Shown: in pieces, positions 7,844 through 61,015 of the stretch
How the letters are laid out: every line of letters starts with the position of its first letter
How positions within the stretch are numbered: position 1 is the stretch's first letter
IMG/VR virus record: IMGVR_UViG_3300017987_005500
DNA length: 64,000 bases
Source: a virus
Taxonomy: Duplodnaviria > Heunggongvirae > Uroviricota > Caudoviricetes
Direction: 5' to 3' (one strand)
The notes under the pieces: model-generated
The model's database searches: none
What the model saw: only the letters and a program-made list of their open reading frames with translations
What the model was told of the DNA's origin: nothing
Position numbers and translations under genes: made by a program

Positions 7844-7860
7844 CATTTATTTGTTCTTAA
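7844..7860 (-). promoter_or_regulatory. Putative phage promoter, GAACA class
   Basis: Reverse complement reads TTAAGAACAAATAAATG (AACA-N6-TG), intergenic and oriented toward the glycosyltransferase operon. Confidence 0.6.
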
Positions 7861-7865
7861 TATTA

Positions 7866-8939
7866 TTACTTGATTCCAATATCTGACATAGTCTTAACAA
7901 GGAGTCCACTTGAAATTGCAGTTTGTGGATTTTTTGCCATTCTTATTGAAGAAACATCAAATGGTAATTCATATTTTTTAATTGTCTCTTTGAAAAGTTC
8001 TAAAAATCCAGGGACTGAAGAAGTTCCTCCCGCTATTACAATAGGAATATCCTCATCAAGTTCTAAATCAAAATTTTCATTAAATTGTGATATTATATTT
8101 TTAACTGTGTAATTCATCAATGCAGAGTAATAATATGTTAGCGCTTCTAAGACTCTACGTCGTTTTTTATTTTTTTCTGTGCTAAATCCTTTACTTAAAT
8201 CTAAATATCTTTCTTTAATATTTGTAACTCGATTTGGAGTTATACCTAAATCGTTTGCTACATTTGTGTCTATCCAATCTCCAGATCTTGAAGTTGAAAA
8301 TGTAAATGCTTCAACTGCCTTATATGCGCAACATACATTACACATTCCAGCTCCAAATGATAATCCTATTCCAGAGAATTTCTCTTTAGCACATTCAGAA
8401 TAAATAACTGCCATTGCTTCATTACAACTTGTGTGATTAACTCCAATTGCGCCAAGTATTCTTGTGAATACCTTTTCATGATATGTTACACTTCTGTCCA
8501 TATCAATTGCTTCAGCAGGAACTGAATATGAACAATATACATCTTTATCTTTAACATTCCCAAACATATTTTTAATTATAAGAGCAAGAACATCAACTGC
8601 ATCAAGTTCGCTTGGAGAAATCATTCCTTTCTCCATAGGACGAGACACAGGTTTATTAAAAAGATTTGCCATTTTAAAAGCGTCATCTCCAATAATATAT
8701 GTATTCCCATCTTCAGATTTAATATGAGATAAGTCTGAAAATTCAGATATTGAAACTTCATCTGTATCAATTGATAAAAACATATTTCTTGTTATATTTG
8801 CAGAAGTCGGTTTATCTGAAGTTGATAAAATAATAGTCATTGTACCAATGTCCAAACCAGCTGCTATTTTTTTATTCTTTGTGGTTTTTGGTTTCTTTCG
8901 AGTATCTTCGTTTGGGTCCGTTATAATATCATCTGTCAT
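7866..8939 (-). CDS. Actin-like (ASKHA; MreB/ParM-like) ATPase
   Basis: Phosphate-1 'GLDIGT', connect 'NEAMA', phosphate-2 'SFGAGMCN', adenosine 'IAGGTS'. Confidence 0.85.
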   Translation of the reverse strand: MTDDIITDPNEDTRKKPKTTKNKKIAAGLDIGTMTIILSTSDKPTSANITRNMFLSIDTDEVSISEFSDLSHIKSEDGNTYIIGDDAFKMANLFNKPVSRPMEKGMISPSELDAVDVLALIIKNMFGNVKDKDVYCSYSVPAEAIDMDRSVTYHEKVFTRILGAIGVNHTSCNEAMAVIYSECAKEKFSGIGLSFGAGMCNVCCAYKAVEAFTFSTSRSGDWIDTNVANDLGITPNRVTNIKERYLDLSKGFSTEKNKKRRRVLEALTYYYSALMNYTVKNIISQFNENFDLELDEDIPIVIAGGTSSVPGFLELFKETIKKYELPFDVSSIRMAKNPQTAISSGLLVKTMSDIGIK

Positions 8940-9472
8940 TCTTTATCTCCTTTTAATTCACGTAATATATCAGCACTCTCAGAAATATCAGACTCTACAT
9001 ATATTTCTTCTGATTTTGTATCAGATATTTCCATTCCGTCTAAACTAATCTCTGGTACAAATTCATCATCATCTAATGATTCAATTTTAGGTCCTGTTGA
9101 AACTGTTTTACTGAAAGATTTTTTGGGTTTAATGACTCCGCCTTCCATTAATTTATTCATCCCATCCATCAATAATTCAAATTTTCTATTTAATTTAGAT
9201 AATTCTTTTGAGCTAACACCATCTTTAATTCTTTGTACAATAACTTTTTCTGGTTTTTTAGCTTTAGCAATTTTTGTATTTTTCGGAAGAGTTTTAATTA
9301 CTTGAGGTTTTTCATCCTCAACTATTTGATATTTTGAAAGTCCATTCATTTTCAATGCTACAATAACTAAATTAATATCAACTCCAGATATCTCAATATT
9401 ACATGGAGTTCGTACCAATCCAACTCTTGGTAATGTAAATGAGCATCCTGGATCTTTAACTATAAGTCTCAT
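8936..9472 (-). CDS. Hypothetical protein coupled to the actin-like gene
   Basis: ATGA overlap with 7866..8939; basic middle, short coiled coil, acidic tail. Confidence 0.6.
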   Translation of the reverse strand: MRLIVKDPGCSFTLPRVGLVRTPCNIEISGVDINLVIVALKMNGLSKYQIVEDEKPQVIKTLPKNTKIAKAKKPEKVIVQRIKDGVSSKELSKLNRKFELLMDGMNKLMEGGVIKPKKSFSKTVSTGPKIESLDDDEFVPEISLDGMEISDTKSEEIYVESDISESADILRELKGDKE

Positions 9473-9482
9473 AATTTAATTC

Positions 9483-13556: not shown

Positions 13557-13587
13557 TTATTCAATCTCCTTTGAAATTCGTTATTCT

Positions 13588-14268
13588 CTAAAAAGTCAAT
13601 TCGTTAAACTTAAAATCTAGTTTATTCGGTTTCTTTTTATACTCTTTTTCATTTGTTCTATGACTCATGTCTATTTTCTCATATAAAACATCTACTAATT
13701 TACATAATACATGTCCTATTAAAATATGCATTTCTTGTATTCTTGCTGTATTATATGAAGGTACTTTAATTAATACATCATATTTATCAAATTCAACTTT
13801 ACAGTTACCTGTAAGAAGAATTGTTTTAATTCCCATTTCTTTAGCTCTATCAAGAGCAAGTCTTACATTAGGTGATGTTCCAGATGTTGAAATACCAATA
13901 GCAACATCACCTGGATTGCCAAGAGCAGAAATTTGTTTTGAAAAAATCTCTTTGTAATTGAAGTCATTTGAAATTGCTGTAAGAGCTGAAGTGTCTGTAG
14001 TTAGAGCAATTGCAGGAAGAGGTTCTCGGTCAATTGAAAATCTATTTGTAAATTCAGCAGCTATATGTTGAGCATCAGCAGCACTACCTCCATTACCAAA
14101 TAAAAATAATTTCCTCCTTGTAATTGGATAATCTCTTTTCTCAGGATTTGGATTGAATATCTCTTCTAATAGTTTACTAGCTCTAATAATAAAATTATGA
14201 CATTTACTTAATGTAAGAGCTGTTAATTTTTCATGTTCAAAAAATATCTCATCAACTATAGTTACCAT
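13588..14268 (-). CDS. gmhA: Phosphoheptose (sedoheptulose-7-phosphate) isomerase
   Basis: 'GNGGSAADAQHIAAE', 'SNDF', 'ISTSGTS.NV', 'ARIQEMHI..GH.LC'. Confidence 0.95.
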   Translation of the reverse strand: MVTIVDEIFFEHEKLTALTLSKCHNFIIRASKLLEEIFNPNPEKRDYPITRRKLFLFGNGGSAADAQHIAAEFTNRFSIDREPLPAIALTTDTSALTAISNDFNYKEIFSKQISALGNPGDVAIGISTSGTSPNVRLALDRAKEMGIKTILLTGNCKVEFDKYDVLIKVPSYNTARIQEMHILIGHVLCKLVDVLYEKIDMSHRTNEKEYKKKPNKLDFKFNELTF

Positions 14269-15738: not shown

Positions 15739-15756
15739 TTATATATATTACTTTGT
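15739..15756 (+). promoter_or_regulatory. Putative early promoter (TATATTAC class)
   Basis: ttATATATATTACTTTGT upstream of the helicase; near-identical motif at 44871. Confidence 0.5.
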
Positions 15757-17081: not shown

Positions 17082-17099
17082 TAAGAACATAAACTAAAA
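17082..17099 (+). promoter_or_regulatory. Putative phage promoter, GAACA class
   Basis: TAAGAACATAAACTAAAA, intergenic. Confidence 0.55.
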
Positions 17100-21921: not shown

Positions 21922-21990
21922 GGTTGCTATTAATAAAAAAGAGAACTAAATTAAAAAAGGACATGTTATATAATAGACGGGAGGAAGTTA

Positions 21991-23366: not shown

Positions 23367-23384
23367 TAAGAACAAATATTAAAA
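23367..23384 (+). promoter_or_regulatory. Putative phage promoter, GAACA class
   Basis: TAAGAACAAATATTAAAA directly upstream of the HNH gene. Confidence 0.6.
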
Positions 23385-28461: not shown

Positions 28462-28478
28462 GCGAACAAATTAATATC
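28462..28478 (+). promoter_or_regulatory. Putative phage promoter, GAACA class
   Basis: GCGAACAAATTAATA (AACA-N6-TA) upstream of hldD-nrdJ. Confidence 0.55.
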
Positions 28479-31487: not shown

Positions 31488-31504
31488 TAGAACAAACTAT
31501 TAAA
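31488..31504 (+). promoter_or_regulatory. Putative phage promoter, GAACA class
   Basis: TAGAACAAACTATTAAA (AACA-N6-TA). Confidence 0.6.
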
Positions 31505-33568: not shown

Positions 33569-33592
33569 TAAGAACAAAAAACAAATTAATAT
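33569..33592 (+). promoter_or_regulatory. Putative phage promoter, GAACA class
   Basis: TAAGAACAAAAAACAAATTAATA; tandem AACA, the second giving AACA-N6-TA. Confidence 0.6.
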
Positions 33593-44868: not shown

Positions 44869-44886
44869 CTATATATATTTCTTTAT
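44869..44886 (+). promoter_or_regulatory. Putative early promoter (TATATT[A/T]C class)
   Basis: ctATATATATTTCTTTAT upstream of the sigma-like gene; 14 of 16 positions match the 15741 motif. Confidence 0.5.
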
Positions 44887-44933: not shown

Positions 44934-46391
44934 ATGGAACTTGAGAAAAAAGAAGTTAAAAAATGGACTATTATTTTTGGAGATGGTTGGCAATTCGAGC
45001 TGGATTTAATTTCTAATTCAATTACAAACAAATTTCATATCATTGCAGATTTTTTGACATCAATGTCGGAATCCTGCGATGGTTTTGAAGAATGGTTAAA
45101 GACTTTTTTGTTTGCATATTCTGAAAATGCTGACTTGAGATTTGACCTTTTAAAAGACGCTGTCCCAGTAATTAAGAAATATGTAAATGAATACATTGAT
45201 CTTATAGCAACTGACTATGATAAATTTGTTGATGAGACAAAAGCAAAGAAGTCAAGTATTTTATTTAGAGCTCCTGAAATTAAAAGTATTATAATACTTT
45301 CAGGTTATTTGAAAGTATATGCTTTAATTTCAAATAGTGCTAATTTGAAATTAGATCAAAGACTTCATAGACAAATTTATAACTTATTTGCAGCTGATAT
45401 ATTAAAAACTGATATTGTCAGAAAAATATTCGACGTAGTAAAAACAAAGACATTTCGTTATAGTATAACCGACAGATATATGTGGGATTATATTAGGACA
45501 ATACAATGCAAAGAAATCGACGATCACATAATCGAGATATTCAATTTTATAATGAATAATATCTTAGCGTTATGTGAAAATGATAAAAATCCAATCATCT
45601 TCTTTATTGGGGTGATTGATGAATCTGTAAAATGGTTCTTGAGATCAGTCTATAAAGGAACTATTATTTATGAAGATAGCATGTCAACTGAAGATATTCA
45701 ATCTGCAAATATTGATAACTTGAGTGCATATTGCTATAACGATACATTGGGTCGATTGAAGGGTATTGCATATGAATTGATATATGAATCCTTGGAAGGA
45801 AAGAAAGGGGGAGTATTAACCTTTACGGACGAAAATGGAGAGGTTGGGACTGATAGCTATATCACAACATTTCAATCAAGAGTTATGGGTGTTGAGCATA
45901 TATCACCCTTATGTGAATGTATTGTATTTCCAGTTCTTTCAAAAGTATTGGATATTCCATATAGCTATTTCAAGACAATATCTCCAGAACATGCAGCTGT
46001 ATTATCAGTATATACTCATAACCTTTTAAAGAAGGTATTTAAAAATAATTTTAAGACATTAATATCAATGCTCCCATTTTACCCAAATGAGCAACCATCA
46101 TTATCAACAACATATGTCCTTAAGAATGTGAACACATATTTAAATCTATTTAATGAGACACAGGATTTCTTTGGATTTAAAAATAAGATATTCTTTCATA
46201 ATGTTCTTTGTCATTTTGTAGGAAGAGTATCAAGGATTGATTTTGTCCATGTTGTTGATGGAACTAAATTAGGTGGAATCCCATTAAGTAAAATTGAGGA
46301 AGATATGATAGAGTTCTTTATATCATTCTTCTCTGGGAATTTAGATGGTGAGTTTGAAGAAATGTCTAAAATAGCAAACTCTGATTTTTAG
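44934..46391 (+). CDS. Putative sigma-like promoter-specificity subunit (AR9 gp226 / phiKZ gp68-like)
   Basis: 485 aa, helical. Segments 'IVRKIFDVVKTKTFRYSITDRYMWDYI' and 'IMNNILALCENDKNPIIFFIGVIDESVKW' match my recollection of gp226 in order and spacing; lies 1.6 kb upstream of beta'/beta. Confidence 0.6.
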   Translation: MELEKKEVKKWTIIFGDGWQFELDLISNSITNKFHIIADFLTSMSESCDGFEEWLKTFLFAYSENADLRFDLLKDAVPVIKKYVNEYIDLIATDYDKFVDETKAKKSSILFRAPEIKSIIILSGYLKVYALISNSANLKLDQRLHRQIYNLFAADILKTDIVRKIFDVVKTKTFRYSITDRYMWDYIRTIQCKEIDDHIIEIFNFIMNNILALCENDKNPIIFFIGVIDESVKWFLRSVYKGTIIYEDSMSTEDIQSANIDNLSAYCYNDTLGRLKGIAYELIYESLEGKKGGVLTFTDENGEVGTDSYITTFQSRVMGVEHISPLCECIVFPVLSKVLDIPYSYFKTISPEHAAVLSVYTHNLLKKVFKNNFKTLISMLPFYPNEQPSLSTTYVLKNVNTYLNLFNETQDFFGFKNKIFFHNVLCHFVGRVSRIDFVHVVDGTKLGGIPLSKIEEDMIEFFISFFSGNLDGEFEEMSKIANSDF

Positions 46392-46407: not shown

Positions 46408-46424
46408 TAAGAACAAAAACTAAA
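46408..46424 (+). promoter_or_regulatory. Putative phage promoter, GAACA class
   Basis: TAAGAACAAAAACTAAA upstream of the operon containing the RNAP core genes. Confidence 0.6.
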
Positions 46425-47593: not shown

Positions 47594-48028
47594 ATGGAAG
47601 ATCCAAGAGTTGAGAAACTTCAAGAGTTAGTTAGGAAAATGAACTCATTGATTTCCCCAATGAGCTATCATGATACATTAAAAGATTTAAGAACAAAACC
47701 TGCCGGTGAAGTGTTTAAAGGAAATGCAACAAAATGTATCATTCCATGGAAAAAGGGAGCTCAATTAGTACAAATTCCTATTTGTAATAGGATGGGAATG
47801 ATAGATCCTCAAATGATAGAGTTTGGTAAAAAGATGGTAAATAAAATGAGATCAGTGAGTCCTCAAGATGATAGTGGTGGAGCTGATATAATCATTGCCA
47901 AATTAGATAAATTGCATAAAAAGTATAGCAAAGATATTCCAAAACCATCTGATAGAGCTGCCCAACATGGACAAGTTACAAAATTCACAAATAAAATACT
48001 AAAGAATATTAAAGGACATTTAACGTAA
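47594..48028 (+). CDS. Basic hypothetical protein coupled to beta'
   Basis: GGAGG RBS; TAATG overlap with the beta' gene. Confidence 0.6.
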   Translation: MEDPRVEKLQELVRKMNSLISPMSYHDTLKDLRTKPAGEVFKGNATKCIIPWKKGAQLVQIPICNRMGMIDPQMIEFGKKMVNKMRSVSPQDDSGGADIIIAKLDKLHKKYSKDIPKPSDRAAQHGQVTKFTNKILKNIKGHLT

Positions 48029-51000
48029 TGTTAGATCTTTTAAATGTTAATGATTTCACAAAAGGACTTGATTTAATATCATCTACAGAGATCGCAACTA
48101 AAGATGGCGGATTTCATGTAAATGGATTATTCTCAGAGTCCATTTTTGGAACAGTAGGTTCCAATGAAAGACGAACAACATATGCTTATATTGATTTAGG
48201 AGCAAATGTAATTCACCCAACAATGATACGTTTTCTTTATAGACTTGATGGAAAAATAAAATCTTTTATATCAACTGAACATACATATGAAGTTGATAAA
48301 GAAACGGGTGAACTTGTCCAATCTCCTGATGGAGTTTCTGGTATAGCTGCTTTTATTAAATTGTTTCCAAAGATTAAATTCAATCTTGGAACTCCAGCAA
48401 GAGAAAAAATTAATGCCTCTGTTCAAGCTGCCTATAAAGATAAGTCTATTTTTATTAATAAACTTCCAGTTATTCCACCTGGTTATAGAGATGCTTATCA
48501 AGATGAATCTGGAGATTGGGTAGTTGATAAACTTAATGATTATTATATTACTATAATGAGGCGAGCTGTTAATGTAACAACATCATCTGGATCAGGTATT
48601 CTTTTTGATCTGATGAATTATGGTTTACAGCAAGCAGTCATTGATCATGATAAATATATCCAAACTCGTATTGCTAAAAAGTCTGGAATTATAAGAAGTC
48701 AAATGTTGGGAAAACGAATTGATTTTTCAGCTAGATCTGTAATTACACCAGGTCCTGACTTAAAAATTAATGAGATTGGAATTCCTTTAAGAATTGCAGC
48801 AACAATATTTGAACCATTTTTAATTCATCGTCTTTTATATTCTGGAATTGTTGATCAAGACTCATTATCTAAGGAAGTTGAAGAGTTTGTTGGAATTCCT
48901 CTATCTGTAGATAGTGTAAGAAAAGTCATTAAATCAATAAGAGTTGGTGATAAAATTCCTGAAGCATTATATAATATTTTTGCAGAATCAACCGAAGCTG
49001 TTATGCACGGAAGAGCAGTTATTGCAAAACGAGATCCAGCACTTCACGCAGAATCAGTAAGAGCATTTACTCCAATTTTAACTCATGGAAATAATGTACA
49101 AATATGCACATTGCAAGTAACTGGATTTAATGCTGACTTTGATGGAGATACAATGTTAGTTTGTCATCCTTTGAGTAATGAAGCTCAAGAAGAGATTCAA
49201 GAAAAAATGATGAAAGCTAAATCTGGTGAGTCATCAACTGCAATAACATTTGAATTAAATAAGGAAATGTATGTAGGACTTTATACAATAACGAAAGATA
49301 TTAAGTCCACAAAAGCAGCAATCGCTGTAACTGATAAAGATTTAGAAGATGCATCAAATCCTTATATTCCAGTAGTTTATAGAAAACAAAATACCACAAT
49401 GGGAAAAGCAATATTCAATAGTTGTTTTCCTCCCACCTTTCCTTATGTAAATAAATTGATAACCAAAAAAGTAGTTAATAAAATAATTGATGAATTATTT
49501 AAAAAATACGACGATGATATTGTTAGAGAATCCGTATCTAAACTTGCTAAAGTTGGTTTTAAATTTGCTACAATCATTGCCCCATCTATAAGTATTCAAG
49601 ACTTTGAACTTCCTCCAGCTATATATGAAATTAAAAAGAAACTTGATAAAGTTCCTATTGATGAAGCTCAAAGATTGTTAGATGATGCTCAAAAAATTCT
49701 TGCAAAACATCTTGAAGATACTGGGTTTCATGATTTGATAGAGTCTGGTTCTGGAAAAGGTTGGAGTCAACCAATGCAAATTCTTGTAGCGAAAGGAATT
49801 ATTGCTGACCCAGATGGAAATGTTTTAGAACCTATTAAGGGATCTTTCGCAGATGGATTATCAAATGAGGAATTTTATAATGCAGCTCCAGGTGCTATGA
49901 AAGGAATAATTGATAGAGTCCATAATACTGCTGAAACAGGATATTTATCAAGAAGATTAGCTTTTGTGCTTAATACAGTTGAAGCTGATCCTTATCTTAG
50001 AGATTGCAAAACTAAAAGAACTTTAAATCTTAAAGCAGAACCTGATTTAGTAAGAAGGATGGTAGGAAGATTTGTATTAAAAAATGGAAAACCAGTTTTA
50101 TTTGATCCCAATGATTTTAAAACAGGGGATTTAATTCAATTAAGAAGTCCGATATATTGTGAAAGTCCTAAGATTTGTTATACTTGCTACGGCGAACTAA
50201 TAAAGAGAGTTGGTTCCCCTTACATAGGAATTGTATCAGCTCAGATAATTGGAGAAAGAGGAACTCAATTAATTATGAGAACCTTCCATACAGGTGGAGC
50301 TACTAAAATAGATAAAAAAGATATGATCTCCGATATTATTGATGGGGACGCATTTGTAACAAAGGATGTTGTTAAATCTAAACTTAGACAAGAAGGTAAT
50401 TCATTAGTATGTTTAGATGATTGCAAAATAACTATAGGACTTAATAATTATGAATCTGAAGATGTTGCAATTAAAGAAGATGAGAATGTAGTTTGGTTAA
50501 GAAGCTTAATTTGTAATATAAGCTTTGAAGATACAGAATTCTCTATAATTCTTGATTATATTATAAATGTAAATATTATAAATGGAAATATAGAAGGTAA
50601 TGCAAAAAGTGAAGTAATTCAACTAAATTATCCAAAAGGCAGTACAATTTTAGAATGTACATTAGAGTCAATTGAATTGAAAAAACAAATTCAATTTATT
50701 GATAGACTTCTCAGCGGAAGGGAAATATATAAAAATACAGAACATGTATTTAGACGAATATTTAAAATATACCAAGAACATTCAGGAATGGATTTAGTTC
50801 ATTTAGAAGTTTTATTATCTAATTGTTTTAGATGGAAAGATAATTTAGCTTATCCTGCAAGACTTGGAAAAACATGGGATCCTGTCATGATTAATGTGAA
50901 GAATTTAGTTTTCAATACAGGGTTTGTAAATGGTTTGGCATTTGAAAATATTACAAAAGCTATTGAAATGGGATTAATTGCACAAGAAGATGTACCACCA

Positions 51001-51054
51001 TCTGTATTAGAGAAGGTAATGACAGGAACACTAATTGAGGAAACTAAAAAATAA
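48028..51054 (+). CDS. rpoC: Phage multisubunit RNA polymerase beta'-like subunit
   Basis: 'LGKRIDFSARSVI', 'RDPALH', catalytic 'NADFDGD', bridge helix 'TAETGYLSRRL', trigger loop 'GTQLIMRTFHTGG', Zn site 'C...RSP..C...IC..CYG'. Confidence 0.97.
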   Translation: MLDLLNVNDFTKGLDLISSTEIATKDGGFHVNGLFSESIFGTVGSNERRTTYAYIDLGANVIHPTMIRFLYRLDGKIKSFISTEHTYEVDKETGELVQSPDGVSGIAAFIKLFPKIKFNLGTPAREKINASVQAAYKDKSIFINKLPVIPPGYRDAYQDESGDWVVDKLNDYYITIMRRAVNVTTSSGSGILFDLMNYGLQQAVIDHDKYIQTRIAKKSGIIRSQMLGKRIDFSARSVITPGPDLKINEIGIPLRIAATIFEPFLIHRLLYSGIVDQDSLSKEVEEFVGIPLSVDSVRKVIKSIRVGDKIPEALYNIFAESTEAVMHGRAVIAKRDPALHAESVRAFTPILTHGNNVQICTLQVTGFNADFDGDTMLVCHPLSNEAQEEIQEKMMKAKSGESSTAITFELNKEMYVGLYTITKDIKSTKAAIAVTDKDLEDASNPYIPVVYRKQNTTMGKAIFNSCFPPTFPYVNKLITKKVVNKIIDELFKKYDDDIVRESVSKLAKVGFKFATIIAPSISIQDFELPPAIYEIKKKLDKVPIDEAQRLLDDAQKILAKHLEDTGFHDLIESGSGKGWSQPMQILVAKGIIADPDGNVLEPIKGSFADGLSNEEFYNAAPGAMKGIIDRVHNTAETGYLSRRLAFVLNTVEADPYLRDCKTKRTLNLKAEPDLVRRMVGRFVLKNGKPVLFDPNDFKTGDLIQLRSPIYCESPKICYTCYGELIKRVGSPYIGIVSAQIIGERGTQLIMRTFHTGGATKIDKKDMISDIIDGDAFVTKDVVKSKLRQEGNSLVCLDDCKITIGLNNYESEDVAIKEDENVVWLRSLICNISFEDTEFSIILDYIINVNIINGNIEGNAKSEVIQLNYPKGSTILECTLESIELKKQIQFIDRLLSGREIYKNTEHVFRRIFKIYQEHSGMDLVHLEVLLSNCFRWKDNLAYPARLGKTWDPVMINVKNLVFNTGFVNGLAFENITKAIEMGLIAQEDVPPSVLEKVMTGTLIEETKK

Positions 51055-54000
51055 TGAAGCAATATAAAGTCCTAAAACCTTATTCTCAGGTTTCTAAAAA
51101 ATTAAGTTTTAAATTGGAACGAGACAATCCGTACATTCTCTTTTATTTTCCAGAAAATACAACATTACTTGAAACATATCCTGCATTGGACTTAAGAATA
51201 ATAGATTTTAGGAATGTAATTGTTCCACTTACAAAAATTCCAAGAACTCGCTTAACATCTACATTGAAGAAATTATATAGATCATTAAAGTTGTATGCTA
51301 ATGGAACCAATGAAAAATATCCTGAGAATAAAAATTTAATATTTGATTATTCAACTTATTTAAGATCTATAGATGTTACATATAAACCTATAAGTTATAG
51401 ACAGCGAACAGGATTTTTGATTAAGAATTTATTTTTTATGACAGCTAATCAATTTCCTGAAAATTATAAAAAGATTTTATTGTACAATATTGTACTTGAA
51501 AATAATTTTGATCCAACGTTTGTAAATAGGAAATCATTTCCTATTGTTCAACAATTAAAAGATGAATCATTTCCTTTTGACGATCTTCTTCTTTGCATTA
51601 CTCATAATAATACATCTACGTTTAGACTTTTGGTCAGAGATAAAGAATTTTCTTTACCAAGGACTTTACAATATTTGAAAACTATTAAACCTATAAATGT
51701 TGAAGAAGAGGAAGAAAAAGAATTAAATGATGCATCTACAGCAGTAGCTAAAAAGATAGATGTAAAACCAAAAGATAAAAAGACTGTTAATGTTGCAGTC
51801 AATAATTATTTATCAACTTCTCCAGCTGACTTAGAAAAGATTTCAACTGGAAAAGCAACTAAAGCTGATGAAGAAAGAATAGCTGTTGCATCATTATTAT
51901 ATAGGACATCAGGAGATTTATCTAAAGCTAAAAAAATAGCAAATTCAATTCCTCCTAAAAAGAGAGCAATTGCATTAAAGAGAATTGATAAACAACTCGT
52001 TGATGAATTGATTCCACCTAAAGATTCTATAAACTTATCATCCGAAGTTGTTGTGCAATCATCTAATGTTCAAAAAGTAGTCGATAAAAAAACACCTGAA
52101 CACATATTTGAAAAGAGAAAAGTTGATTATAAAGTTAATCTCACAAAGGATATGGCAAATGCATTTAAGATGCTTGAAAATAAAGAAGTTCCTTTGAAGA
52201 TTGAAAAAATAAAAATAGTTGAGCAACCTGATAAACCAGGAGAGATTGACCCAACTGATAAATCAACAATTGAAGTTATGCTTAAAGATAAATCTGGAAC
52301 ATCTCATAAAATTGAAATTGATGTTCCAAGGATTAATCCAGAGACAGGAATATTTAGAGTATATGGACAAAAGAAATGTTTGATAAATCAAATTATTCAA
52401 TGTCCAATAACATTTCCTAAACCACATGAGTCACGATTTGAAAGTTCATATTCAAAATTTAGAATATGGGTTGTGATGACAAAAAGAATGAATTATCTTC
52501 ATTCATATATGGGTGGTTGTAAGATACCTCTTTTAATAATGCTCTCGTATTCATATGGTTTTGAAAGGACATTAAAACAATATGGAATAGGATATAAAAT
52601 AAGCGACATTAAACCAAGTAAGGACGCGAAATTTGCGATTAAAATAGATGATAGGTATATATATTTCACAAAAGTTGACACCCCATTAAAGGAGCAATTG
52701 GTTAACTCATTCATCTATGCAAAACCATCGAAATATAAGATTGATTATGAATTTGGAAGCAAGATGTATTTCAATGAATTAATAATAGCTATAACAGGAA
52801 GAATCAATTCAACATATTTAATTCAATCAAATCTTGAAAATATAGTAACACCTGTTGCTCATCAAGTTCTTGTTAATCAACAACTTCCTACACAACTTGA
52901 GCAAATAATGAAATATATGGCAACTAATTGTGTAGCTGGTAAAGAGATTAAGAGAAATGATTTAAGCAACCAAAGAATAAGAAATTCAGAAGTTATTGTT
53001 GATTTAGCTCAAAGTAGAATATTAGCTGCTTATACTGAGTATAAAGAGCAAATATTATCAGGAAACAATGACGCTGTATTCAATATTCCTAAAGGAGTTG
53101 TTTTAGCAGACTTTAATAAAATTGAAAATGTTCAAACAATGGAGTATGCAAATCCTCTTGAAGAAATGGCAACATTGTCAAGAGTAACTCCTGTAGGAAA
53201 AACGGTTGGAGGAATTCCTGATAAAAGAGCTATAACTGCGGATGCTTTAAATGTTGATAAATCTTATTTTGGAAATATTGATTTATATGACACACCAGAA
53301 GGTGAGAATATTGGAGTTGTTCAACAATTGACAGTTGATGCTCATATTACATCAGCAAGAGGTCTTTTCAAAACAATCCCACTTTCTAATAAAGAGAATG
53401 CAGGGCTTTTATCAACAACAACTTCAATGATTCCTTTTGTATCTCATAATGATGGGAATAGGATTATGATGGCGGCAAGTCAAGCAAAACAAATGCTTCC
53501 ACTTAAAAATCCAGAACCTCCAGTTGTTCAATCGGGATATGAATCATTGCTTACAAATACATTATCTGATAGTTTTGTAAAGAAGTCCCCATGCACAGGA
53601 AAAGTTGCATCAATTTCAAGAGATGCAATTACATTGGTATGCTCAAATGGAAAAAAGCAAACAATTGACACAACTCCTGTTCATCTTAAATCAGGTTCTG
53701 GAAAAGATACTTTAAGTGTATTTAATCCAACTGTTATTAAAGGACAAACTATAAAAAGTGGTAATGTACTTGCTGAAGGAAGTTGTATTTCTCAAGGAAG
53801 TATTGCTTTAGGTAGGACATTGCTTGCTGCAGTTATGCCATATAAAGGATATAATTATGAAGATGGTGTAACGATAAGCGAGACATTAGTTCATCAAGAT
53901 AAGTTAACATCTTTACATGGAATAATTGTAGAGGTAACTGTATCTGAAAATGATCGTTTAGTTTATATTTCTGAAATGGGTGATAAAACTAAAAAGGGTG

Positions 54001-55139
54001 AAACAATTCTCAGAAAGACAGTAGGTGAAATTGAGGAATTAATTGGTATTGATGATGATGAAGATTCAACTGATATTTTAGCTGGACAACTTATCAAGAA
54101 AAGTCCAGGTGGAACAATTGTTGACATTGAAGTATTTTCAAATATGACAACTGATAAATTTCCTCAACTTAAATCATTAATTTCAAGAACAAGAAAGAGA
54201 TATAAAAACCCAACTAAGAAATTTTTGATTAAAGGAAGAAGCATTAATGGAATGTTGATAAGATTTAAAATAGAACAAGAACTTCCAATTGGTCTTGGCG
54301 ATAAACTTGCTAATAGACATGGTAATAAAGGTATTGTCTCATTAGTTGAAAAAGAAGAAAATATGCCAAGGACTCCGTGGGGAGATAGAGTTGAAATTGT
54401 ATTAAATCCTCTTGGAATTATTGGAAGAATGAATGTTGGTCAAATTTATGAATTGTATTGTGGATTAATCGGCAGAGAACTTGCTAAAAAATCAATCTCA
54501 TTAAATTCAAAATCAAATGTAGTTAATTTATTTAAAGCTATATTATCTCAATTAGATAATACAAAAGATAAACAATTTAGCTCAGATTTTATTAAAAATT
54601 TAAGAGGTCTTAACAGAGCAAATTACAATTTAATGTTAGAGCAAATGAAAAAGACAGGATTCGCCCCAATCGTAGTTCCTCCATTTCAAACTCCTACTTA
54701 TAAAAATATTCTTGCAGCAATGAAAATGTTAGATCTTAAACAAGGATATAAACTTTATTTGCCTGACTATAATACAAAAACGAATTATGAAGTTCCAGTT
54801 GGTTATCAATATATTACAAAACTTGAACATATGGGTGAAGCAAAACTACATGCTAGATCCACAGGACCCGTTACTTCAAAAACATTGCAACCGACTGCAG
54901 GAAAGAGAAGCGAAGGTGGTCAGAGATTAGGCGAAATGGACACATATTCATTTCTTTCATATAATGCGACAAAAACATTATCTGAACTTATGGGTCCTAT
55001 GAGCGATGATATCGTGACCAAAAATGAAATGTTATCTGAAATAATTCAAACAGGTCAAGTTGAATATAAACCAACTAAAACTTCACCGGTAAGGGATCTA
55101 TTAAATGCTTATATGGTTGCCCTTATGCTAGGAAAGTAA
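51054..55139 (+). CDS. rpoB: Phage multisubunit RNA polymerase beta-like subunit with long N-terminal extension
   Basis: 'DTPEGENIG', 'HNDGNR..M', 'GYNYEDG', 'GDKLANRHGNKG', 'LNPLG...RMN.GQ', 'HARSTGP', 'GGQRLGEMD'. Confidence 0.97.
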   Translation: MKQYKVLKPYSQVSKKLSFKLERDNPYILFYFPENTTLLETYPALDLRIIDFRNVIVPLTKIPRTRLTSTLKKLYRSLKLYANGTNEKYPENKNLIFDYSTYLRSIDVTYKPISYRQRTGFLIKNLFFMTANQFPENYKKILLYNIVLENNFDPTFVNRKSFPIVQQLKDESFPFDDLLLCITHNNTSTFRLLVRDKEFSLPRTLQYLKTIKPINVEEEEEKELNDASTAVAKKIDVKPKDKKTVNVAVNNYLSTSPADLEKISTGKATKADEERIAVASLLYRTSGDLSKAKKIANSIPPKKRAIALKRIDKQLVDELIPPKDSINLSSEVVVQSSNVQKVVDKKTPEHIFEKRKVDYKVNLTKDMANAFKMLENKEVPLKIEKIKIVEQPDKPGEIDPTDKSTIEVMLKDKSGTSHKIEIDVPRINPETGIFRVYGQKKCLINQIIQCPITFPKPHESRFESSYSKFRIWVVMTKRMNYLHSYMGGCKIPLLIMLSYSYGFERTLKQYGIGYKISDIKPSKDAKFAIKIDDRYIYFTKVDTPLKEQLVNSFIYAKPSKYKIDYEFGSKMYFNELIIAITGRINSTYLIQSNLENIVTPVAHQVLVNQQLPTQLEQIMKYMATNCVAGKEIKRNDLSNQRIRNSEVIVDLAQSRILAAYTEYKEQILSGNNDAVFNIPKGVVLADFNKIENVQTMEYANPLEEMATLSRVTPVGKTVGGIPDKRAITADALNVDKSYFGNIDLYDTPEGENIGVVQQLTVDAHITSARGLFKTIPLSNKENAGLLSTTTSMIPFVSHNDGNRIMMAASQAKQMLPLKNPEPPVVQSGYESLLTNTLSDSFVKKSPCTGKVASISRDAITLVCSNGKKQTIDTTPVHLKSGSGKDTLSVFNPTVIKGQTIKSGNVLAEGSCISQGSIALGRTLLAAVMPYKGYNYEDGVTISETLVHQDKLTSLHGIIVEVTVSENDRLVYISEMGDKTKKGETILRKTVGEIEELIGIDDDEDSTDILAGQLIKKSPGGTIVDIEVFSNMTTDKFPQLKSLISRTRKRYKNPTKKFLIKGRSINGMLIRFKIEQELPIGLGDKLANRHGNKGIVSLVEKEENMPRTPWGDRVEIVLNPLGIIGRMNVGQIYELYCGLIGRELAKKSISLNSKSNVVNLFKAILSQLDNTKDKQFSSDFIKNLRGLNRANYNLMLEQMKKTGFAPIVVPPFQTPTYKNILAAMKMLDLKQGYKLYLPDYNTKTNYEVPVGYQYITKLEHMGEAKLHARSTGPVTSKTLQPTAGKRSEGGQRLGEMDTYSFLSYNATKTLSELMGPMSDDIVTKNEMLSEIIQTGQVEYKPTKTSPVRDLLNAYMVALMLGK

Positions 55140-55140: not shown

Positions 55141-55752
55141 ATGCAAAATGAACAGCAAAATTTAAAGACTTTATGCGACATTATTGACCCAGAACCATCC
55201 GGAGACGATGATCGAGATACCCAATATGACGTTGGGGTTGTATTTTCTGACCAATATGATTTATTAGAAATTCATACTTATTTTGGATTAGATGAATTTA
55301 TGGAGATTTATACATCTACAATAAATGGAGTAAGACAGCAAGAATTACAAATTCAAGCAACTTTATGTAGTCTGTTATTAGAAAAAATTGAAAATGTATA
55401 TGATTTTTCATTTGACACTCATATCACTTTATTAAGGCAGAGGGATCTCGATAAAGTATATGATTTAGCGGAATTTCTTCAATATAATAATCTTAAATTT
55501 ATAACAGGAATTTGGAAATCCTTTGGGTTAAAGAATATTGTATCATTAGATGTAGAAGATTTCTTCACTTCAAATAAAGATAATTTCCAAAAGTTAATAG
55601 AACAAATAACAAATAGATCATTAATGTATAGTAAAGATTCACTTATCAACCATTTTCTAAACATTTGTAACAAAGAAATATCATTATTTATGATAACACA
55701 AATGACGAATAAGTGGAGAATTGAAATTTCTGCGAATTTAATGAAAGGATAA
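55141..55752 (+). CDS. Hypothetical protein directly after beta
   Basis: 203 aa, starts 1 nt after the beta stop codon. Confidence 0.6.
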   Translation: MQNEQQNLKTLCDIIDPEPSGDDDRDTQYDVGVVFSDQYDLLEIHTYFGLDEFMEIYTSTINGVRQQELQIQATLCSLLLEKIENVYDFSFDTHITLLRQRDLDKVYDLAEFLQYNNLKFITGIWKSFGLKNIVSLDVEDFFTSNKDNFQKLIEQITNRSLMYSKDSLINHFLNICNKEISLFMITQMTNKWRIEISANLMKG

Positions 55753-56017: not shown

Positions 56018-56044
56018 TCCTTGTTATATATATTTATATTTAAT

Positions 56045-56245: not shown

Positions 56246-56316
56246 TTTATTTGTACGTCTTTAGAAAAAATGTTATATCTATATCCTACGTAATTTTGAA
56301 TTTAACGAGGTGAATT

Positions 56317-56889: not shown

Positions 56890-56937
56890 CTTTCATTATC
56901 TTTAACTTTTAAAATAACTTTTAAGGAGGAAAACACG

Positions 56938-57963
56938 ATGGCACTTAACATGAATGACTACAAAGATGAATTTTCAGGAACTGGCGTAGATAATAAAGAA
57001 CCAGTTAAACCAGAAGATGAGTTTTTTCACGCAGTTTATATTGGACATTCTTCAAGAAAGAATCACCTTGGAATAATTGAAGAAGCAGGGAAATTCCATA
57101 TTAGAGGAGTCCAATATAATATGGACAGTGTTAATATGATTGTAACTTTGACAAAAAAGATCTTGTCAAAATCAGTTGAAGTAAATAAGAAAGATAAAAT
57201 AGAATGCTTTTCATTCCAAGATGGTCCTTTGCCTCATAAAGGAAGCAGCGGAAATGTTTGTGGAATGAACGCAAATGAAAGAGCATTAAATCCTTATTGT
57301 GAACCATGCCGAGCACAACTCATTGTAGTTGGTATTTTATGTGATGAGTCCGGAAATCCATTTAAAACTGAAGAAGGAAAACCAGTATTTGGATTTATTC
57401 GTGGAAAGGGAATGAGATATGTGGGTGTTTCTGATCATTTAAATACCCTAACCAAATTGGAACTCAATCCAATTGTTCAACCGGTAACTGAAGAAAGTAA
57501 AGAATGGGAAAAGAAGCATATCAATCAATGTCGTGTTGTGACCAAAATCACAAGGGATATCGCAACTTCATCTTTCAATAGCACTGTAAATATATTCAAA
57601 TTTGAAGTTGGAACTCAAATTCCTGATGATGCAGTTGAAAAGATTATGCAAATTACCAAAAGTATAGTTGAAAAATTTAAAGAAAAATTTGATTGGTCAA
57701 AGACAAGAGCAGCTCAAACTGCCGCAGCAGCAAATTCATATGCAGGCGCAGGACCAACTCAAGCTCAACAATTCGGAGTTCCAGATCAAGCACCTAAAAC
57801 TCAAGAATCTCAATTAAATAAACCAGCAGATGATATTCCTTTTGGAGGAAATTCAGTACCGGAAGCTCAACCCCAAAATCAATCAGTTGAGCAATCACCT
57901 CCTGCTGAAAAACAAGCTCCACCAGCTCAAACTGGATTTGGGTTTGATGATTTAAACTTTTAA
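56938..57963 (+). CDS. Putative single-stranded DNA-binding protein
   Basis: Beta-rich core with Cys cluster, Q/P/A-rich linker, acidic-aromatic tail 'FGFDDLNF'; strong AAGGAGG RBS. Confidence 0.6.
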   Translation: MALNMNDYKDEFSGTGVDNKEPVKPEDEFFHAVYIGHSSRKNHLGIIEEAGKFHIRGVQYNMDSVNMIVTLTKKILSKSVEVNKKDKIECFSFQDGPLPHKGSSGNVCGMNANERALNPYCEPCRAQLIVVGILCDESGNPFKTEEGKPVFGFIRGKGMRYVGVSDHLNTLTKLELNPIVQPVTEESKEWEKKHINQCRVVTKITRDIATSSFNSTVNIFKFEVGTQIPDDAVEKIMQITKSIVEKFKEKFDWSKTRAAQTAAAANSYAGAGPTQAQQFGVPDQAPKTQESQLNKPADDIPFGGNSVPEAQPQNQSVEQSPPAEKQAPPAQTGFGFDDLNF

Positions 57964-57989
57964 TTAAATTAAAAGTATAAGGTGACCTT

Positions 57990-58349: not shown

Positions 58350-58363
58350 AAAGGAAATCAAAG

Positions 58364-59593
58364 ATGACAGATAAAAAACAGGATGAATTAAAACACTTCG
58401 AGAAACTAAATATTTCAACATTACCTATATCTAAAGTAAAAGAAATAATTAAATCAAATATTGTGAACACATTGACGTGTTGGGATAACGATATTGATAT
58501 TGAAAAACAAACCTTTCATATCATAGGTCCTGCCGGAGTAGGAAAGACACAGATTTGTTATCAAATATGTGAAGAATTGACACAGGAAATGTTTAAAGGG
58601 AATAAAGAATTTGAAATCATCAAAGTCAATGCTCCAGTATTATCAAGAGATGATTTTATTATTCCATTTCCAGTAATTGATAATGGTAATACATCATTTA
58701 AAATGCTGTATTCTGACTTTGTTCCAAAGAATAAAGATTCATTTGGATTATTTGTAATTGATGAGTTCTCTCGTGGAGATCATTCATTGCAACAATTAAT
58801 GTGGCAAGTCCAAAATGAATGTAAACTTCATTTAATGGATTTTCCAAAAGGTTGGTTTATAGTTTCAATTGATAATCCAGATGACTCTGAATATACAATG
58901 GATTATCTTGATGATGCTGCCGGACTCAGGAGAATGCTTCATGTTTACACTGAAGTAAGTCCTATGGACTTTTTGAATTATGCAATGAAGTCGAATTATC
59001 ATACAACTGTTATTGAATATATTCAAATGCATCCTGATTATTTATATGACTTTAAATCTCAAAAGGTTGGGTCTGTCTATGCAAATCCTGCTTCATGGGA
59101 AAGAGTTTCTAATATTCTCAAGGGGTTTGAGCAAACAGGTGGGATAAAACCTAACTTTAATGCAATAGAAGTTTTATGTTCAGGTCTTTTAAACACAAGT
59201 ATGACCAGGATGTTTATGGACTATTTAAGAGATATGAAAGATATATCTCCAAGGGATATCTTCTTTAGTTATCCTAAAGTAAGAAAAGATATTGTAGGAT
59301 TTGTTAGAGATCAAAATAATGCAAAGCTTGGGGAGATCATGCAAGCATTTCTGACATATCTCACAACTTCATTTCCTGATTATGGAAGAAAGGAAAAGAA
59401 GAATGTTGTTGAATTGTTAACCACAATTCCAATCGACACAGCAGCAATATTTATAACTCAAATTAATACATTTGGTAAAGCGACTAAAGAGTTTAAATAT
59501 ATGACCGATCTCCACAGAACATTATCAAAAGAATCAAAAGATTATAAGAGGGATTTTTATCAAAAGATTGTTGATGCAAGTAATGCCAAATAG
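58364..59593 (+). CDS. MoxR-like AAA+ ATPase
   Basis: 'GPAGVGKT', 'VIDEF.R', 'DNP', 'ANPASWERVS'. Confidence 0.85.
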   Translation: MTDKKQDELKHFEKLNISTLPISKVKEIIKSNIVNTLTCWDNDIDIEKQTFHIIGPAGVGKTQICYQICEELTQEMFKGNKEFEIIKVNAPVLSRDDFIIPFPVIDNGNTSFKMLYSDFVPKNKDSFGLFVIDEFSRGDHSLQQLMWQVQNECKLHLMDFPKGWFIVSIDNPDDSEYTMDYLDDAAGLRRMLHVYTEVSPMDFLNYAMKSNYHTTVIEYIQMHPDYLYDFKSQKVGSVYANPASWERVSNILKGFEQTGGIKPNFNAIEVLCSGLLNTSMTRMFMDYLRDMKDISPRDIFFSYPKVRKDIVGFVRDQNNAKLGEIMQAFLTYLTTSFPDYGRKEKKNVVELLTTIPIDTAAIFITQINTFGKATKEFKYMTDLHRTLSKESKDYKRDFYQKIVDASNAK

Positions 59594-59601
59594 GGGGATT
59601 T

Positions 59602-60981
59602 ATGAATGATATAAGTAACATTGATGGTTCTGTAAGATTAAAGAACCTAGTTGCTAAATTAACATTACAAAATTCTTATTGGGGTTATCTGTTTTCAAGA
59701 ATCAGAAGAGTTCCTGTTCCTAATTTTAAAAGTATTATGGGAATAACTAGCACAGGTCATGGAACTTTAAATTTAAGTTACAATCCTGAGTTAGTTGCTA
59801 AGACTGAAGATAGTGTTTTATCTTTAGTCTTAGAGCATGAGGGAATGCATATATTAAATAAACATATACCTCGACTCATAAGAATTTTAGCTAATGAAAT
59901 GGATTTTAATAAACATAAAGCTAAGATGAACATTTGGAATACAGCATCCGATTGTTGTGTTAATTCACAAATAAAGGATTTTCCAAAGGAACTTCTTATA
60001 GCAGGGGATAAATGGAAACTTGAATTTCCTCAAAATTATAAACTTGAATTAGGTAAGGCAGCAGAGTTTTATTATCATAAACTTCTTGAGAAAACTAAAT
60101 TTACAGAAATCTCAATCAATATGCCAGGTAAAGGTAAATCTGGAGATGATAAAGATGGAGATGATAATAAAGGAGAAGGTGAAGAAAGTAGTAAAGGATT
60201 AACTGGAAAAGCATTAGTTTGTGATCACAGTGGTTGGACTAAAGGAGAAGATGAAGGTGGAGGAAAAAGTCTTGATCCAAATACTCTTGCAAGACAGGTT
60301 GAAAATTTCACTCAGGAAATTGCAAGACAAGCTCTAAATAATTTTAGTAAAAAGATGGGGCGAGGGACTTTACCTGCTGGAGTATATGAATTGATTAATG
60401 AATTACTTCAACCACCTAAAGCTCCGTATTACCAAATCATTCAAAAGTTAGTTAAGGCGACTAGGATTTCTAAATTCAAAAGTTGTTCTACAAGAATAAA
60501 CAGAAAAAGGACATATTCATTTATATTAAAGGAATTTGATTTACCTCAAATATCTCCTTTTCCTGGAAAGAAAAGAGATCTCACTTTTAATATTGGAGTT
60601 CTTATAGATACTTCAGGGAGTCAATCTAAAGAAGACATTATGGATGCACTCTCTGGAATTAAAAGTCTTGTAGAGAATGATAGAAATTGTCACGTGACTG
60701 TAATTGAAAATGACACAGTTGTTCAAAAAGAATATGAGATAAAAAGATTAGCTGATATTCAAATGAAAGTTAAAGGACGAGGCGGGACAGTGTTAATGCC
60801 AGGACTTGAGAGATTCAGAGAATTATCAGTTGACGTAGTTCTTGGTTTCACAGATGGTTATTGTGAAAATCTAAATGAGTTAAATAGGAAAAGACTTCCG
60901 AAGAAACTTATTTGGGCAGTTGATAAACAAAGAGGAACTGTTGAGACACTTAACAGGACAGGATTTATAGTTAGAATATAA
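59602..60981 (+). CDS. Metallopeptidase-like (HExxH) and vWA domain protein (DUF2201 type)
   Basis: 'LEHEGMH..H', 'N.A.D..VN', MIDAS 'IDTSGS', 'GRGGT', 'FTDG'. Confidence 0.85.
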   Translation: MNDISNIDGSVRLKNLVAKLTLQNSYWGYLFSRIRRVPVPNFKSIMGITSTGHGTLNLSYNPELVAKTEDSVLSLVLEHEGMHILNKHIPRLIRILANEMDFNKHKAKMNIWNTASDCCVNSQIKDFPKELLIAGDKWKLEFPQNYKLELGKAAEFYYHKLLEKTKFTEISINMPGKGKSGDDKDGDDNKGEGEESSKGLTGKALVCDHSGWTKGEDEGGGKSLDPNTLARQVENFTQEIARQALNNFSKKMGRGTLPAGVYELINELLQPPKAPYYQIIQKLVKATRISKFKSCSTRINRKRTYSFILKEFDLPQISPFPGKKRDLTFNIGVLIDTSGSQSKEDIMDALSGIKSLVENDRNCHVTVIENDTVVQKEYEIKRLADIQMKVKGRGGTVLMPGLERFRELSVDVVLGFTDGYCENLNELNRKRLPKKLIWAVDKQRGTVETLNRTGFIVRI

Positions 60982-61015
60982 AATTATAGAGAACTATATA
61001 GAAAGGAAGTTAAAT

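What the first reader, a model, noticed from the sequence alone, without database searches (positions are those of the whole stretch)
7844..61005. Strand-oriented intergenic motif GAACA-N5/6-T[A/G] matching the AR9 late promoter consensus
Seen: (TAA)GAACAAA-type motifs in short intergenic gaps, always facing the next gene: 7860(-) GAACAAATAAATG, 17085 GAACATAAACTA, 23370 GAACAAATATTA, 28464 GAACAAATTAATA, 31490 GAACAAACTATTA, 33572 GAACAAAAAACAAATTAATA, 46411 GAACAAAAACTA, with GAACT variants at 21943 and 60991. Known: AR9 nvRNAP-gp226 recognises AACA-N6-T[A/G] promoters. Inferred: these are the cognate promoters of the sigma-like protein, which would independently support that assignment and extend the consensus with an upstream AG.
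Basis: partly seen in the sequence, partly recalled or inferred. Interest (0 to 1): 0.85.

Follow-up and report, generated by a model that had tools for sequence, protein, structure and literature searches.

The report
Giant-phage GAACAAA promoter, AR9-like
An uncultured ~300-kb phage marks most of its non-early gene blocks with a short signal (GAACAAA, four bases, AAA) that looks like a divergent version of the late promoter of Bacillus phage AR9, and the phage also encodes a distant relative of the AR9 protein that reads that promoter.

Summary
All nine listed sites exist, face the next gene, and are far above chance: AGAAC[AT]A occurs 8 times in sense intergenic DNA against 0.57 expected (0 of 500 shuffles).

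The conserved core is A-GAACAAA-N4-AAA, not AACA-N5/6-T[A/G]. The strict AR9 pattern is not enriched in the window (4 vs 1.6) or in a complete relative (29 vs 20).

The motif is clade-wide. In 40 independent related contigs, GAACAAA occurs 52 times upstream in sense and 4 times in antisense (p about 1e-37). It is syntenic, often sitting just after a terminator.

The "sigma-like protein" is real. ORF 44934-46391 matches AR9 gp226 by fold (Z 19.4, 405 residues) and by profile (E 1.3e-5, on the promoter-reading 2.1bis helix). AR9's uracil-selective Val206 is Tyr/Phe here.

AACA and a purine at the AR9 +1 distance, the positions essential in AR9, are kept. The T at -1 is not.

A second motif, TATATATATT, resembles AR9 early promoters and precedes the gp226-like gene.

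GAACAAA sites drive replication genes, RNA polymerase genes and probable virion genes, so "post-early" fits better than "late".

No transcript ends could be mapped. Which of the two unsplit polymerases reads the motif is inferred, not shown.

This scan has reported AR9-type promoters before on other DNA. This is a new variant of that known kind.

The parts
7843..7857 (-). Class B site AGAACAAATAAATGA; T-G at +11/+12 (AR9-like). 68 nt before the 135-aa gene that starts at 7788.
17084..17098 (+). Class B site AGAACATAAACTAAA, 41 nt before gene 17126. The clamp-loader gene follows.
21942..21956 (+). Class B variant AGAACTAAATTAAAA, 48 nt before gene 21991.
23369..23383 (+). Class B site AGAACAAATATTAAA, 26 nt before gene 23396. 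It lies in the loop of a 15-bp inverted repeat whose 3' arm covers the RBS and ATG.
28463..28477 (+). Class B site CGAACAAATTAATAT; T-A at +11/+12. 50 nt before the epimerase-RNR unit.
31489..31503 (+). Class B site AGAACAAACTATTAA, 30 nt before gene 31520. The UvsX-like gene is downstream.
33571..33585 (+). Class B site AGAACAAAAAACAAA, 75 nt before gene 33647. It heads an 11-kb gap-free block that includes a baseplate-type OB-domain protein.
46410..46424 (+). Class B site AGAACAAAAACTAAA, 28 nt before gene 46439, heading the receiver-domain / beta' / beta operon. This position is syntenic across the clade.
60990..61004 (+). Class B variant AGAACTATATAGAAA, 25 nt before gene 61016. Topoisomerase II is downstream.
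55600..55613 (+). Candidate internal class B site GAACAAATAACAAA, inside gene 55141-55752 and 157 nt before gene 55757.
13645..13658 (-). Candidate internal class B site GAACAAATGAAAAA, inside the SIS-domain gene and 102 nt before the 670-aa gene that starts at 13556.
44934..46391 (+). gp226-like promoter-specificity subunit (485 aa). The 2.1bis-helix equivalent is T-D-R-Y-M-W-D-Y-I at residues 179-187.
48028..51054 (+). Unsplit RNA polymerase beta' (1008 aa).
51054..55139 (+). Unsplit RNA polymerase beta (1361 aa).
44869..44881 (+). Class A (AR9-early-like) site CTATATATATTTC, about 64 nt before the gp226-like gene.
15739..15751 (+). Class A-like site TTATATATATTAC in the divergent region, about 60 nt before the probable ATG of the Dda-like helicase.
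56024..56036 (+). Class A-like site TTATATATATTTA at the start of the 299-nt gap after the RNA polymerase operon. Relatives have the same arrangement.

Best explanation
The motif is the main post-early promoter of this phage clade. Its consensus is 5'-A-GAACAAA-N4-AAA-3' on the coding strand.

By homology with AR9, a phage-encoded multisubunit RNA polymerase carrying the gp226-like subunit (44934-46391) would read the complement of AACA on the template strand at about -11 to -8. Transcription would start at an A inside the AAA block, 11-13 nt after the G. This gives short leaders that begin just before the Shine-Dalgarno sequence.

The gp226-like gene carries an AR9-early-like TATATATATT element. 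The likely programme is: an injected polymerase reads TATATAT promoters and makes the specificity subunit, which then switches on GAACAAA units (replication, nucleotide metabolism, both polymerase operons, virion genes).

Shown: the motif's reality, orientation, position, clade-wide and syntenic conservation, and the homology of the subunit.

Inferred: that it is a promoter, where transcription starts, strand-specific reading, and which of the two unsplit polymerase cores is used.
For: Motif statistics.

Clade-wide conservation: 52 sense vs 4 antisense upstream copies in 34 of 40 loci, OR 14, p 1e-37. 28 upstream sites vs 5.1 expected in a complete 277-kb relative.

Synteny: 24 of 38 loci have the motif in the gap right after the gp226-like gene. 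In at least 8 distinct loci it follows a GC hairpin plus T-run, the layout of a terminator followed by a promoter.

Sharp downstream block: A at +11/+12/+13 in 45/53/57 of 59 sites, falling to 14 of 59 at +14. Shine-Dalgarno G's never begin before +14, and G-to-ATG distances are mostly 21-70 nt. The element must therefore act as a -10-like signal.

gp226 homology: Foldseek 7S01_A E 1e-4; VIA-align Z 19.4 over 405 residues, with unrelated rows at Z 4.9 or below; chain identity confirmed; hhalign 81%, E 1.3e-5 on the 2.1bis helix, with D, W and Y shared.

In AR9, -11 to -8 and +1 are the essential positions and -1 matters less (PMC5449584). These are exactly the positions kept here.

The class A motif resembles AR9's early consensus (PMC5312081) and precedes the gp226-like gene in 20 of 38 loci.

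Sigma70-like sites are not enriched: 108 vs 130 in shuffles.
Against: There are no transcript 5' ends, so promoter function and the start site are not demonstrated.

The T at AR9's -1 is absent, and the strict AR9 pattern is not enriched.

AR9's Val206 is Tyr/Phe here, so the -10 pocket cannot be identical.

The polymerase next to the gp226-like gene usually sits behind a GAACAAA site itself, sometimes after a terminator. That raises the question of who transcribes it first.

The most divergent relatives show the motif less clearly: G003 has 4 of the top 24 hits upstream, and L054/L055 have none in the syntenic gap.
Confidence: 0.72

Rival explanations
1. The motif is a genuine phage promoter but is read by something other than the gp226-like holoenzyme built on the neighbouring beta'/beta. 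Possibilities are the second, compact polymerase (about 900 + 1000 aa, outside this window), or the injected core reprogrammed by the gp226-like protein acting as an exchangeable factor.
For: The neighbouring beta'/beta operon is itself behind a GAACAAA site in the window and in many relatives, sometimes after a terminator. In G004 the gp226-like gene is not next to beta'/beta. Nothing here ties the subunit physically to one core.
Against: gp226-like and beta' are syntenic in at least 24 loci. In AR9 and phiKZ this subunit belongs to the non-virion enzyme (PMC7598289). In the window no terminator separates the gp226-like gene from the operon, so read-through from the class A site is possible. 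In G004 the compact polymerase is behind a class B site, as expected for a late, packaged enzyme.
Confidence: 0.15
2. The motif acts at the RNA level, as a 5'-UTR processing site, a protein-binding site or a translation signal, rather than as a promoter.
For: It is strand-specific and always lies upstream of the ribosome-binding site, which an RNA element would also do. In 4-5 of 17 sites it sits in a hairpin loop.
Against: It often lies directly after intrinsic terminators, where little upstream RNA would reach it. Its AACA core, its spacing to an A block, and a cognate gp226 homologue together match a known DNA-level system. Gaps as short as 34-38 nt hold only this element plus the RBS.
Confidence: 0.06
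3. The motif is a host RNA polymerase promoter element, for example the -35 'GAAC' of an ECF sigma factor or an unusual -10.
For: GAAC resembles ECF -35 elements (general knowledge, not tested against a host because none is known).
Against: In many sites the start codon is only 21-30 nt from the G, too close for a -35 element. No TAnnnT pattern follows it. Sigma70-like sites are below chance. The phage encodes its own polymerases and specificity subunit.
Confidence: 0.03

Closest known systems
Late promoters of Bacillus phage AR9/PBS1, 5'-AACA-N6-T-A/G(+1), read on the template strand by the nvRNAP-gp226 holoenzyme (PMC5312081, PMC5449584, PMC9209446)
   Same: AACA core. A conserved purine at the same distance (AACA-N6-N-A). 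A compact single-element promoter next to the RBS. A gp226-fold specificity subunit with the D..W.Y 2.1bis helix. A companion AT-rich TATATATATT early-type motif. Two phage multisubunit polymerases.
   Different: Invariant G and frequent A before AACA, AA after it, and AAA instead of T-A/G. In AR9 these flanks vary. The beta and beta' subunits are unsplit. The subunit is only about 11% identical to gp226. Val206 is replaced by Tyr/Phe. Relatives encode ThyX or ThyA-family enzymes. The motif serves replication and polymerase genes as well as virion genes.
phiKZ nvRNAP with gp68 and its late promoters (TATG at the start site; PMC7598289, PDB 7OGP/8QUE)
   Same: The C-terminal domain of the 485-aa protein matches phiKZ nvRNAP chain B (Z 8.5; taken to be gp68, the gp226 homologue per PMC7598289, but the chain identity was not checked here). 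Transcription is independent of the host.
   Different: phiKZ late promoters have no upstream -10-like element. Here a strong upstream element exists, and the full-length fold match is to AR9 gp226, not to the phiKZ protein.
AR9-type promoters reported earlier by this scan in other uncultured jumbo phages with thymidylate synthesis genes
   Same: AACA-type motif plus a gp226-like subunit in phages that probably do not use plain uracil DNA.
   Different: Those notes describe AACA-N6-TA/TG and, in one case, retention of the valine. Here the start element is AAA, the valine is lost, and the polymerase subunits are unsplit. I did not re-examine those genomes.

Membership tests
AR9-type nvRNAP (gp226-dependent) promoter | Conserved AACA tetranucleotide upstream of genes, on the coding strand | tested here: met
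   A-A-C is part of the search pattern in all 67 clade sites (selected on GAAC[AT]). The fourth base is A in 53 of 67. 52 sense vs 4 antisense upstream copies.
AR9-type nvRNAP (gp226-dependent) promoter | T(-1) and A/G(+1) exactly six bases after AACA | tested here: not met
   The purine at the +1-equivalent position is kept (A in 53 of 59, G in 3). T at -1 occurs in only 12 of 59. The strict pattern is not enriched.
AR9-type nvRNAP (gp226-dependent) promoter | Transcription starts 7 nt after the last A of AACA | not testable with these tools
Only indirect support: the SD never starts before +14.
AR9-type nvRNAP (gp226-dependent) promoter | The genome encodes a gp226-family specificity subunit | tested here: met
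   Z 19.4 over 405 residues to 7S01_A. hhalign E 1.3e-5.
AR9-type nvRNAP (gp226-dependent) promoter | Uracil-selective Val206 in the 2.1bis helix; uracil DNA | tested here: not met
   Val206 aligns with Tyr182, which is Y/F in the clade. 5 of 5 long relatives have ThyX or a ThyA-family gene. The actual DNA chemistry is unknown.
AR9-type nvRNAP (gp226-dependent) promoter | Split beta and beta' core subunits | tested here: not met
   Single ORFs of 1008 and 1361 aa carry Rpb1 and Rpb2 domains.
AR9-type nvRNAP (gp226-dependent) promoter | Restricted to late (virion) genes | tested here: inconclusive
   There are no timing data. Downstream genes include replication, polymerase and probable virion genes.
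Bacterial sigma70 promoter | -35 TTGACA and -10 TATAAT with 16-18 nt spacing | tested here: not met
   108 sites vs 130 +/- 12 in shuffles, none associated with the motif.
ECF sigma promoter (-35 GAAC) | GAAC about 30-35 nt upstream of the start site, with a -10 element 16-17 nt downstream | tested here: not met
   G-to-ATG distance is 21-30 nt at many sites, and no conserved element lies at +20 to +24.
AR9/phiKZ-type vRNAP early promoter (the class A motif) | AT-rich conserved block of about 10-13 nt upstream of early genes | tested here: met
   CTATATAT has OR 56 across 40 loci. G001 consensus is CTATATATATTAATAA, compared with AR9's AAATATATATTAT. Function and timing were not tested.

The most novel reading that the evidence does not exclude
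This clade may be a natural experiment in template-strand promoter reading. An AR9-type specificity subunit has an aromatic residue in place of the uracil-selective valine, sits on unsplit beta'/beta cores, and would read an extended 14-nt promoter in DNA that is thymine-containing or otherwise modified. It may also work as an exchangeable factor that can programme either of the phage's two polymerases. This would be the first post-early promoter class in RNAP-encoding jumbo phages that can be predicted from sequence alone.
Probability: 0.3. Interest if true: 0.75.

Novelty: new variant of a known kind. Interest (0 to 1): 0.6.

Why it matters
The 2020 review of jumbo-phage polymerases states that bioinformatics fails to predict their middle and late promoters (PMC7598289). 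Here a sharp 14-nt signal allows transcription units to be drawn across a whole uncultured clade. More than 550 relatives of the specificity subunit were found, and none in deposited phages.

The signal keeps exactly the positions that are essential in AR9 and changes the residue that enforces uracil. It therefore offers a direct test of how template-strand promoter recognition adapts to a different DNA chemistry and to an unsplit polymerase core.

Tried and rejected
- The whole genome was not available. The contig is not in IMG/VR by exact match. Megablast to deposited phages found nothing.
- Direct phmmer of AR9 gp226 against six-frame ORFs found nothing significant. phmmer and a profile of the 485-aa family against PDB sequences gave only noise, including a weak tail-sheath hit. 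My early guess that the 485-aa ORF was a sheath or other virion protein was dropped once the model came out all-helical and matched gp226.
- Two other large unassigned ORFs gave no PDB hits.
- A complex prediction of beta' residues 1-430 with the gp226-like protein gave no verdict (score 0.01). It counts neither way.
- Hairpins around the motif occur at only 4-5 of 17 sites, so they are not a defining feature.
- Plus-strand GAACC/GAACT copies at 14551-14749, and GAAC copies at 15732(-) and 56050, lack the AAA block and score low. I treat them as doubtful.
- There are no tRNA or Rfam hits in the long gaps.
- A literature search for GAACAAA as a phage promoter found nothing relevant.
Full report
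**What the window is**

The window has about 30% G+C. Genes run on the minus strand up to 15667 and on the plus strand from there on. It encodes an unsplit RNA polymerase beta' (48028-51054, 1008 aa) followed directly by beta (51054-55139, 1361 aa). It also encodes a Dda-like helicase, clamp loader, RNR, UvsX-like recombinase, 5'-3' exonuclease, topoisomerase II and a baseplate-type protein.

The nearest cultured polymerases (YerA41, AR9-like phages, phiKZ) are only 22-28% identical. No whole genome is held. The protein cluster record shows that the source contig is 308,335 bp.

**Checking the observation**

Every listed site is present and lies in a short gap facing the next gene.

An unbiased comparison of intergenic and coding k-mers, separated by strand, returns TAAGAAC as a top 7-mer: 6 intergenic-sense, 7 coding, 1 antisense, OR 33, p 4e-7. 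Against dinucleotide shuffles of the intergenic DNA itself, AGAAC[AT]A is 8 vs 0.57 expected (0 of 500 shuffles). The strict AR9 formula AACA-N6-T[AG] is 4 vs 1.57 (30 of 500).

**Conservation in relatives**

Three related viral contigs were found through beta' and fetched whole. In G001 (beta' 49% identical), GAACAAA came up independently as a top upstream 7-mer: 11 upstream-sense, 21 coding, 2 antisense. Its sites lie 22-51 nt before start codons.

PWMs trained on one genome and applied to the other put 10 of 24 and 7 of 24 top hits at 15-90 nt upstream of a same-strand start, against about 1 expected.

A further 42 loci were retrieved through the 485-aa protein. In the 40 that are independent of G001/G002 (739 kb):
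- GAACAAA is 52 upstream-sense, 4 antisense and 137 coding, present in 34 loci (OR 14, p 1e-37).
- AGAACAAA is 40 upstream-sense vs 2 antisense.

In a complete 277-kb relative with terminal repeats (G004), 28 GAACAAA copies lie 15-100 nt upstream of same-strand starts against 5.1 expected. The strict AR9 pattern is 29 vs 20.2.

**The consensus**

Across 59 strict sites the motif reads A-GAACAAA-N4-AAA. A is present at +11/+12/+13 from the G in 45, 53 and 57 of 59 sites, and in only 14 of 59 at +14. T at +11 occurs in 12 of 59.

Distances from G to the start codon are mostly 21-70 nt. The G's of Shine-Dalgarno cores never begin before +14. The element is therefore too close to genes to be a -35 element. 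If it is a promoter, transcription must start within the AAA block.

If AACA is placed at -11 to -8 as in AR9, then +12 is AR9's +1.

In AR9, changes at -11 to -8 abolish transcription and +1 matters strongly, while -1 has a smaller effect (PMC5449584). This clade keeps the essential positions and drops the least important one.

Running the same procedure on 35 kb of genuine AR9 sequence shows that the base before AACA and the two bases after it vary freely there. The G and the AA are therefore clade-specific additions.

**The sigma-like protein**

ORF 44934-46391 (485 aa) has no Pfam, PHROG or PDB sequence match. It has more than 550 relatives of about 480 aa.

An AlphaFold2 model built on 20 homologues (mean pLDDT 76, mostly helical) gives three top Foldseek hits and nothing else below E 0.26: 7S01_A, 7UM0_A and 8QUE_B. 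VIA-align gives Z 19.4 over 405 residues to 7S01_A, and Z 8.5-9.3 for the C-terminal domain against 7UM1_A and phiKZ chains 7OGP_B/8QUE_B. Unrelated rows start at Z 4.9. 7S01_A is AR9 gp226.

A profile of six AR9-like gp226 proteins aligns to the family profile with hhalign probability 81%, E 1.3e-5, in the same register as the single-sequence comparison. The aligned stretch is the 2.1bis helix, which in AR9 forms the pocket for the -10 template base (PMC9209446):
- AR9 D204, W208 and Y210 match window D180, W184 and Y186.
- Val206 is invariant in the AR9-like set. It excludes thymine, and V206G relaxes this. It aligns with Tyr182, which is Y/F in the clade pattern D[RK][YF]MW[DE]Y.

All five long relatives encode ThyX (2, strong) or a ThyA-family protein (3, weak and partial). 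None has a dUTPase hit. Plain uracil DNA is therefore unlikely, but a modified pyrimidine cannot be excluded.

**Architecture**

A second motif, TATATATATT (G001 consensus CTATATATATTAATAA; OR 56 across the clade), resembles AR9's early consensus AAATATATATTAT. It precedes the gp226-like gene in the window (44869-44881) and in 20 of 38 loci.

In 24 of 38 loci a GAACAAA site lies in the gap right after the gp226-like gene. That is nearly every locus with a gap of 30 nt or more. In at least 8 distinct loci it follows a GC-rich hairpin and T-run.

beta' follows the gp226-like gene within 0-2.5 kb in at least 24 loci. Several relatives reproduce the window's order exactly: class A, gp226-like, class B, receiver-domain gene, beta', beta, two small genes, then a ~300-nt gap with class A.

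In G004:
- Class A units hold mostly small genes plus the gp226-like gene.
- Class B units hold the DNA polymerase, the second compact polymerase (902 + 998 aa) and several very large proteins.

**Interpretation**

The simplest reading is an AR9-like two-stage programme. TATATAT promoters are read by an injected polymerase and give early products that include the specificity subunit. GAACAAA promoters are then read by the gp226-like holoenzyme.

What is shown is the motif's statistics, its conservation and the protein homology. Promoter activity, the start site, template-strand reading and the identity of the core enzyme are inferred.

The polymerase operon next to the gp226-like gene is itself behind a class B site. 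It must first be made either by read-through from the class A site (no terminator is visible in the window's 47-nt gap) or by another enzyme. That leaves open the rival in which the factor also works with the other core.

Host sigma70-type signals are below chance. An ECF-type -35 reading is excluded by geometry. An RNA-level role is unlikely given the placement after terminators, but it is not excluded.

**Novelty**

No paper in the searchable library describes this motif, and no deposited phage has a detectable homologue of the subunit. Earlier notes of this scan report the same motif class in the neighbouring window of this genome, and AR9-type promoters in other uncultured phages.

I class this as a new variant of a known kind: the same mechanism family as AR9, with a longer and sharper consensus, a different start element, an altered pocket residue and unsplit polymerase subunits.

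Noticed in passing
window 7866-8939 (-): The 357-aa protein is a strong match to the Volactin actin-like family (PF25216, E 5e-74). An actin homologue in a giant phage may serve a cytoskeletal or positioning role.
   Followed up: no
window 47128-47592 (+): A stand-alone response-regulator receiver domain (PF00072, E 5e-9) lies between the class B site and beta'. A gene of about 155 aa occupies the same place in relatives L017, L029 and L031. It may be a phospho-dependent regulator of the phage polymerase.
   Followed up: partly
window 56150-56250, 56900-56925, 57950-57975 (+): A third upstream motif, AACTTTT(A)AAA(C), is repeated 8-9 times before three consecutive genes (56317, 56938, 57990). 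AACTTTT is 8 intergenic vs 11 coding, p 9e-9. It is not among the top k-mers in the 40 related loci.
   Followed up: partly
window 23325-23400 (+); G001 7960-8030 and 13545-13590: GAACAAA lies in the loop of a long inverted repeat. In the window the stem is 15 bp (z -6.1) and its 3' arm covers the RBS and ATG. This could hide the RBS in read-through RNA or expose the template strand. It is seen at only 4-5 of 17 sites.
   Followed up: partly
window 28-1056 (-), 6064-7353 (-), 13588-14268 (-), 28514-29533 (+): GT1 and GT9 glycosyltransferases, a SIS-domain protein and a nucleotide-sugar epimerase. Together with the weak, partial ThyA-family hits in relatives, these might point to sugar-modified DNA bases. 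This is untested.
   Followed up: no
window 14269-14683: A 415-nt gap without a gene, tRNA or Rfam hit holds a strong hairpin at 14434-14456 and several weak plus-strand GAACT/GAACC copies that point against the flanking genes.
   Followed up: partly
window 15736-15810: The Dda-like helicase ORF was called from GTG 15736, but it probably starts at an ATG near 15806-15811, after an AAAAGGAAA ribosome-binding site. The class A-like element at 15739-15751 is then intergenic.
   Followed up: partly
window 18483-19520 (+), 59602-60981 (+): A NUMOD3-motif protein (probably a homing-endonuclease type), and a DUF2201/VWA-like protein matching a PHROG annotated as HNH endonuclease, next to an ATPase.
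   Followed up: no
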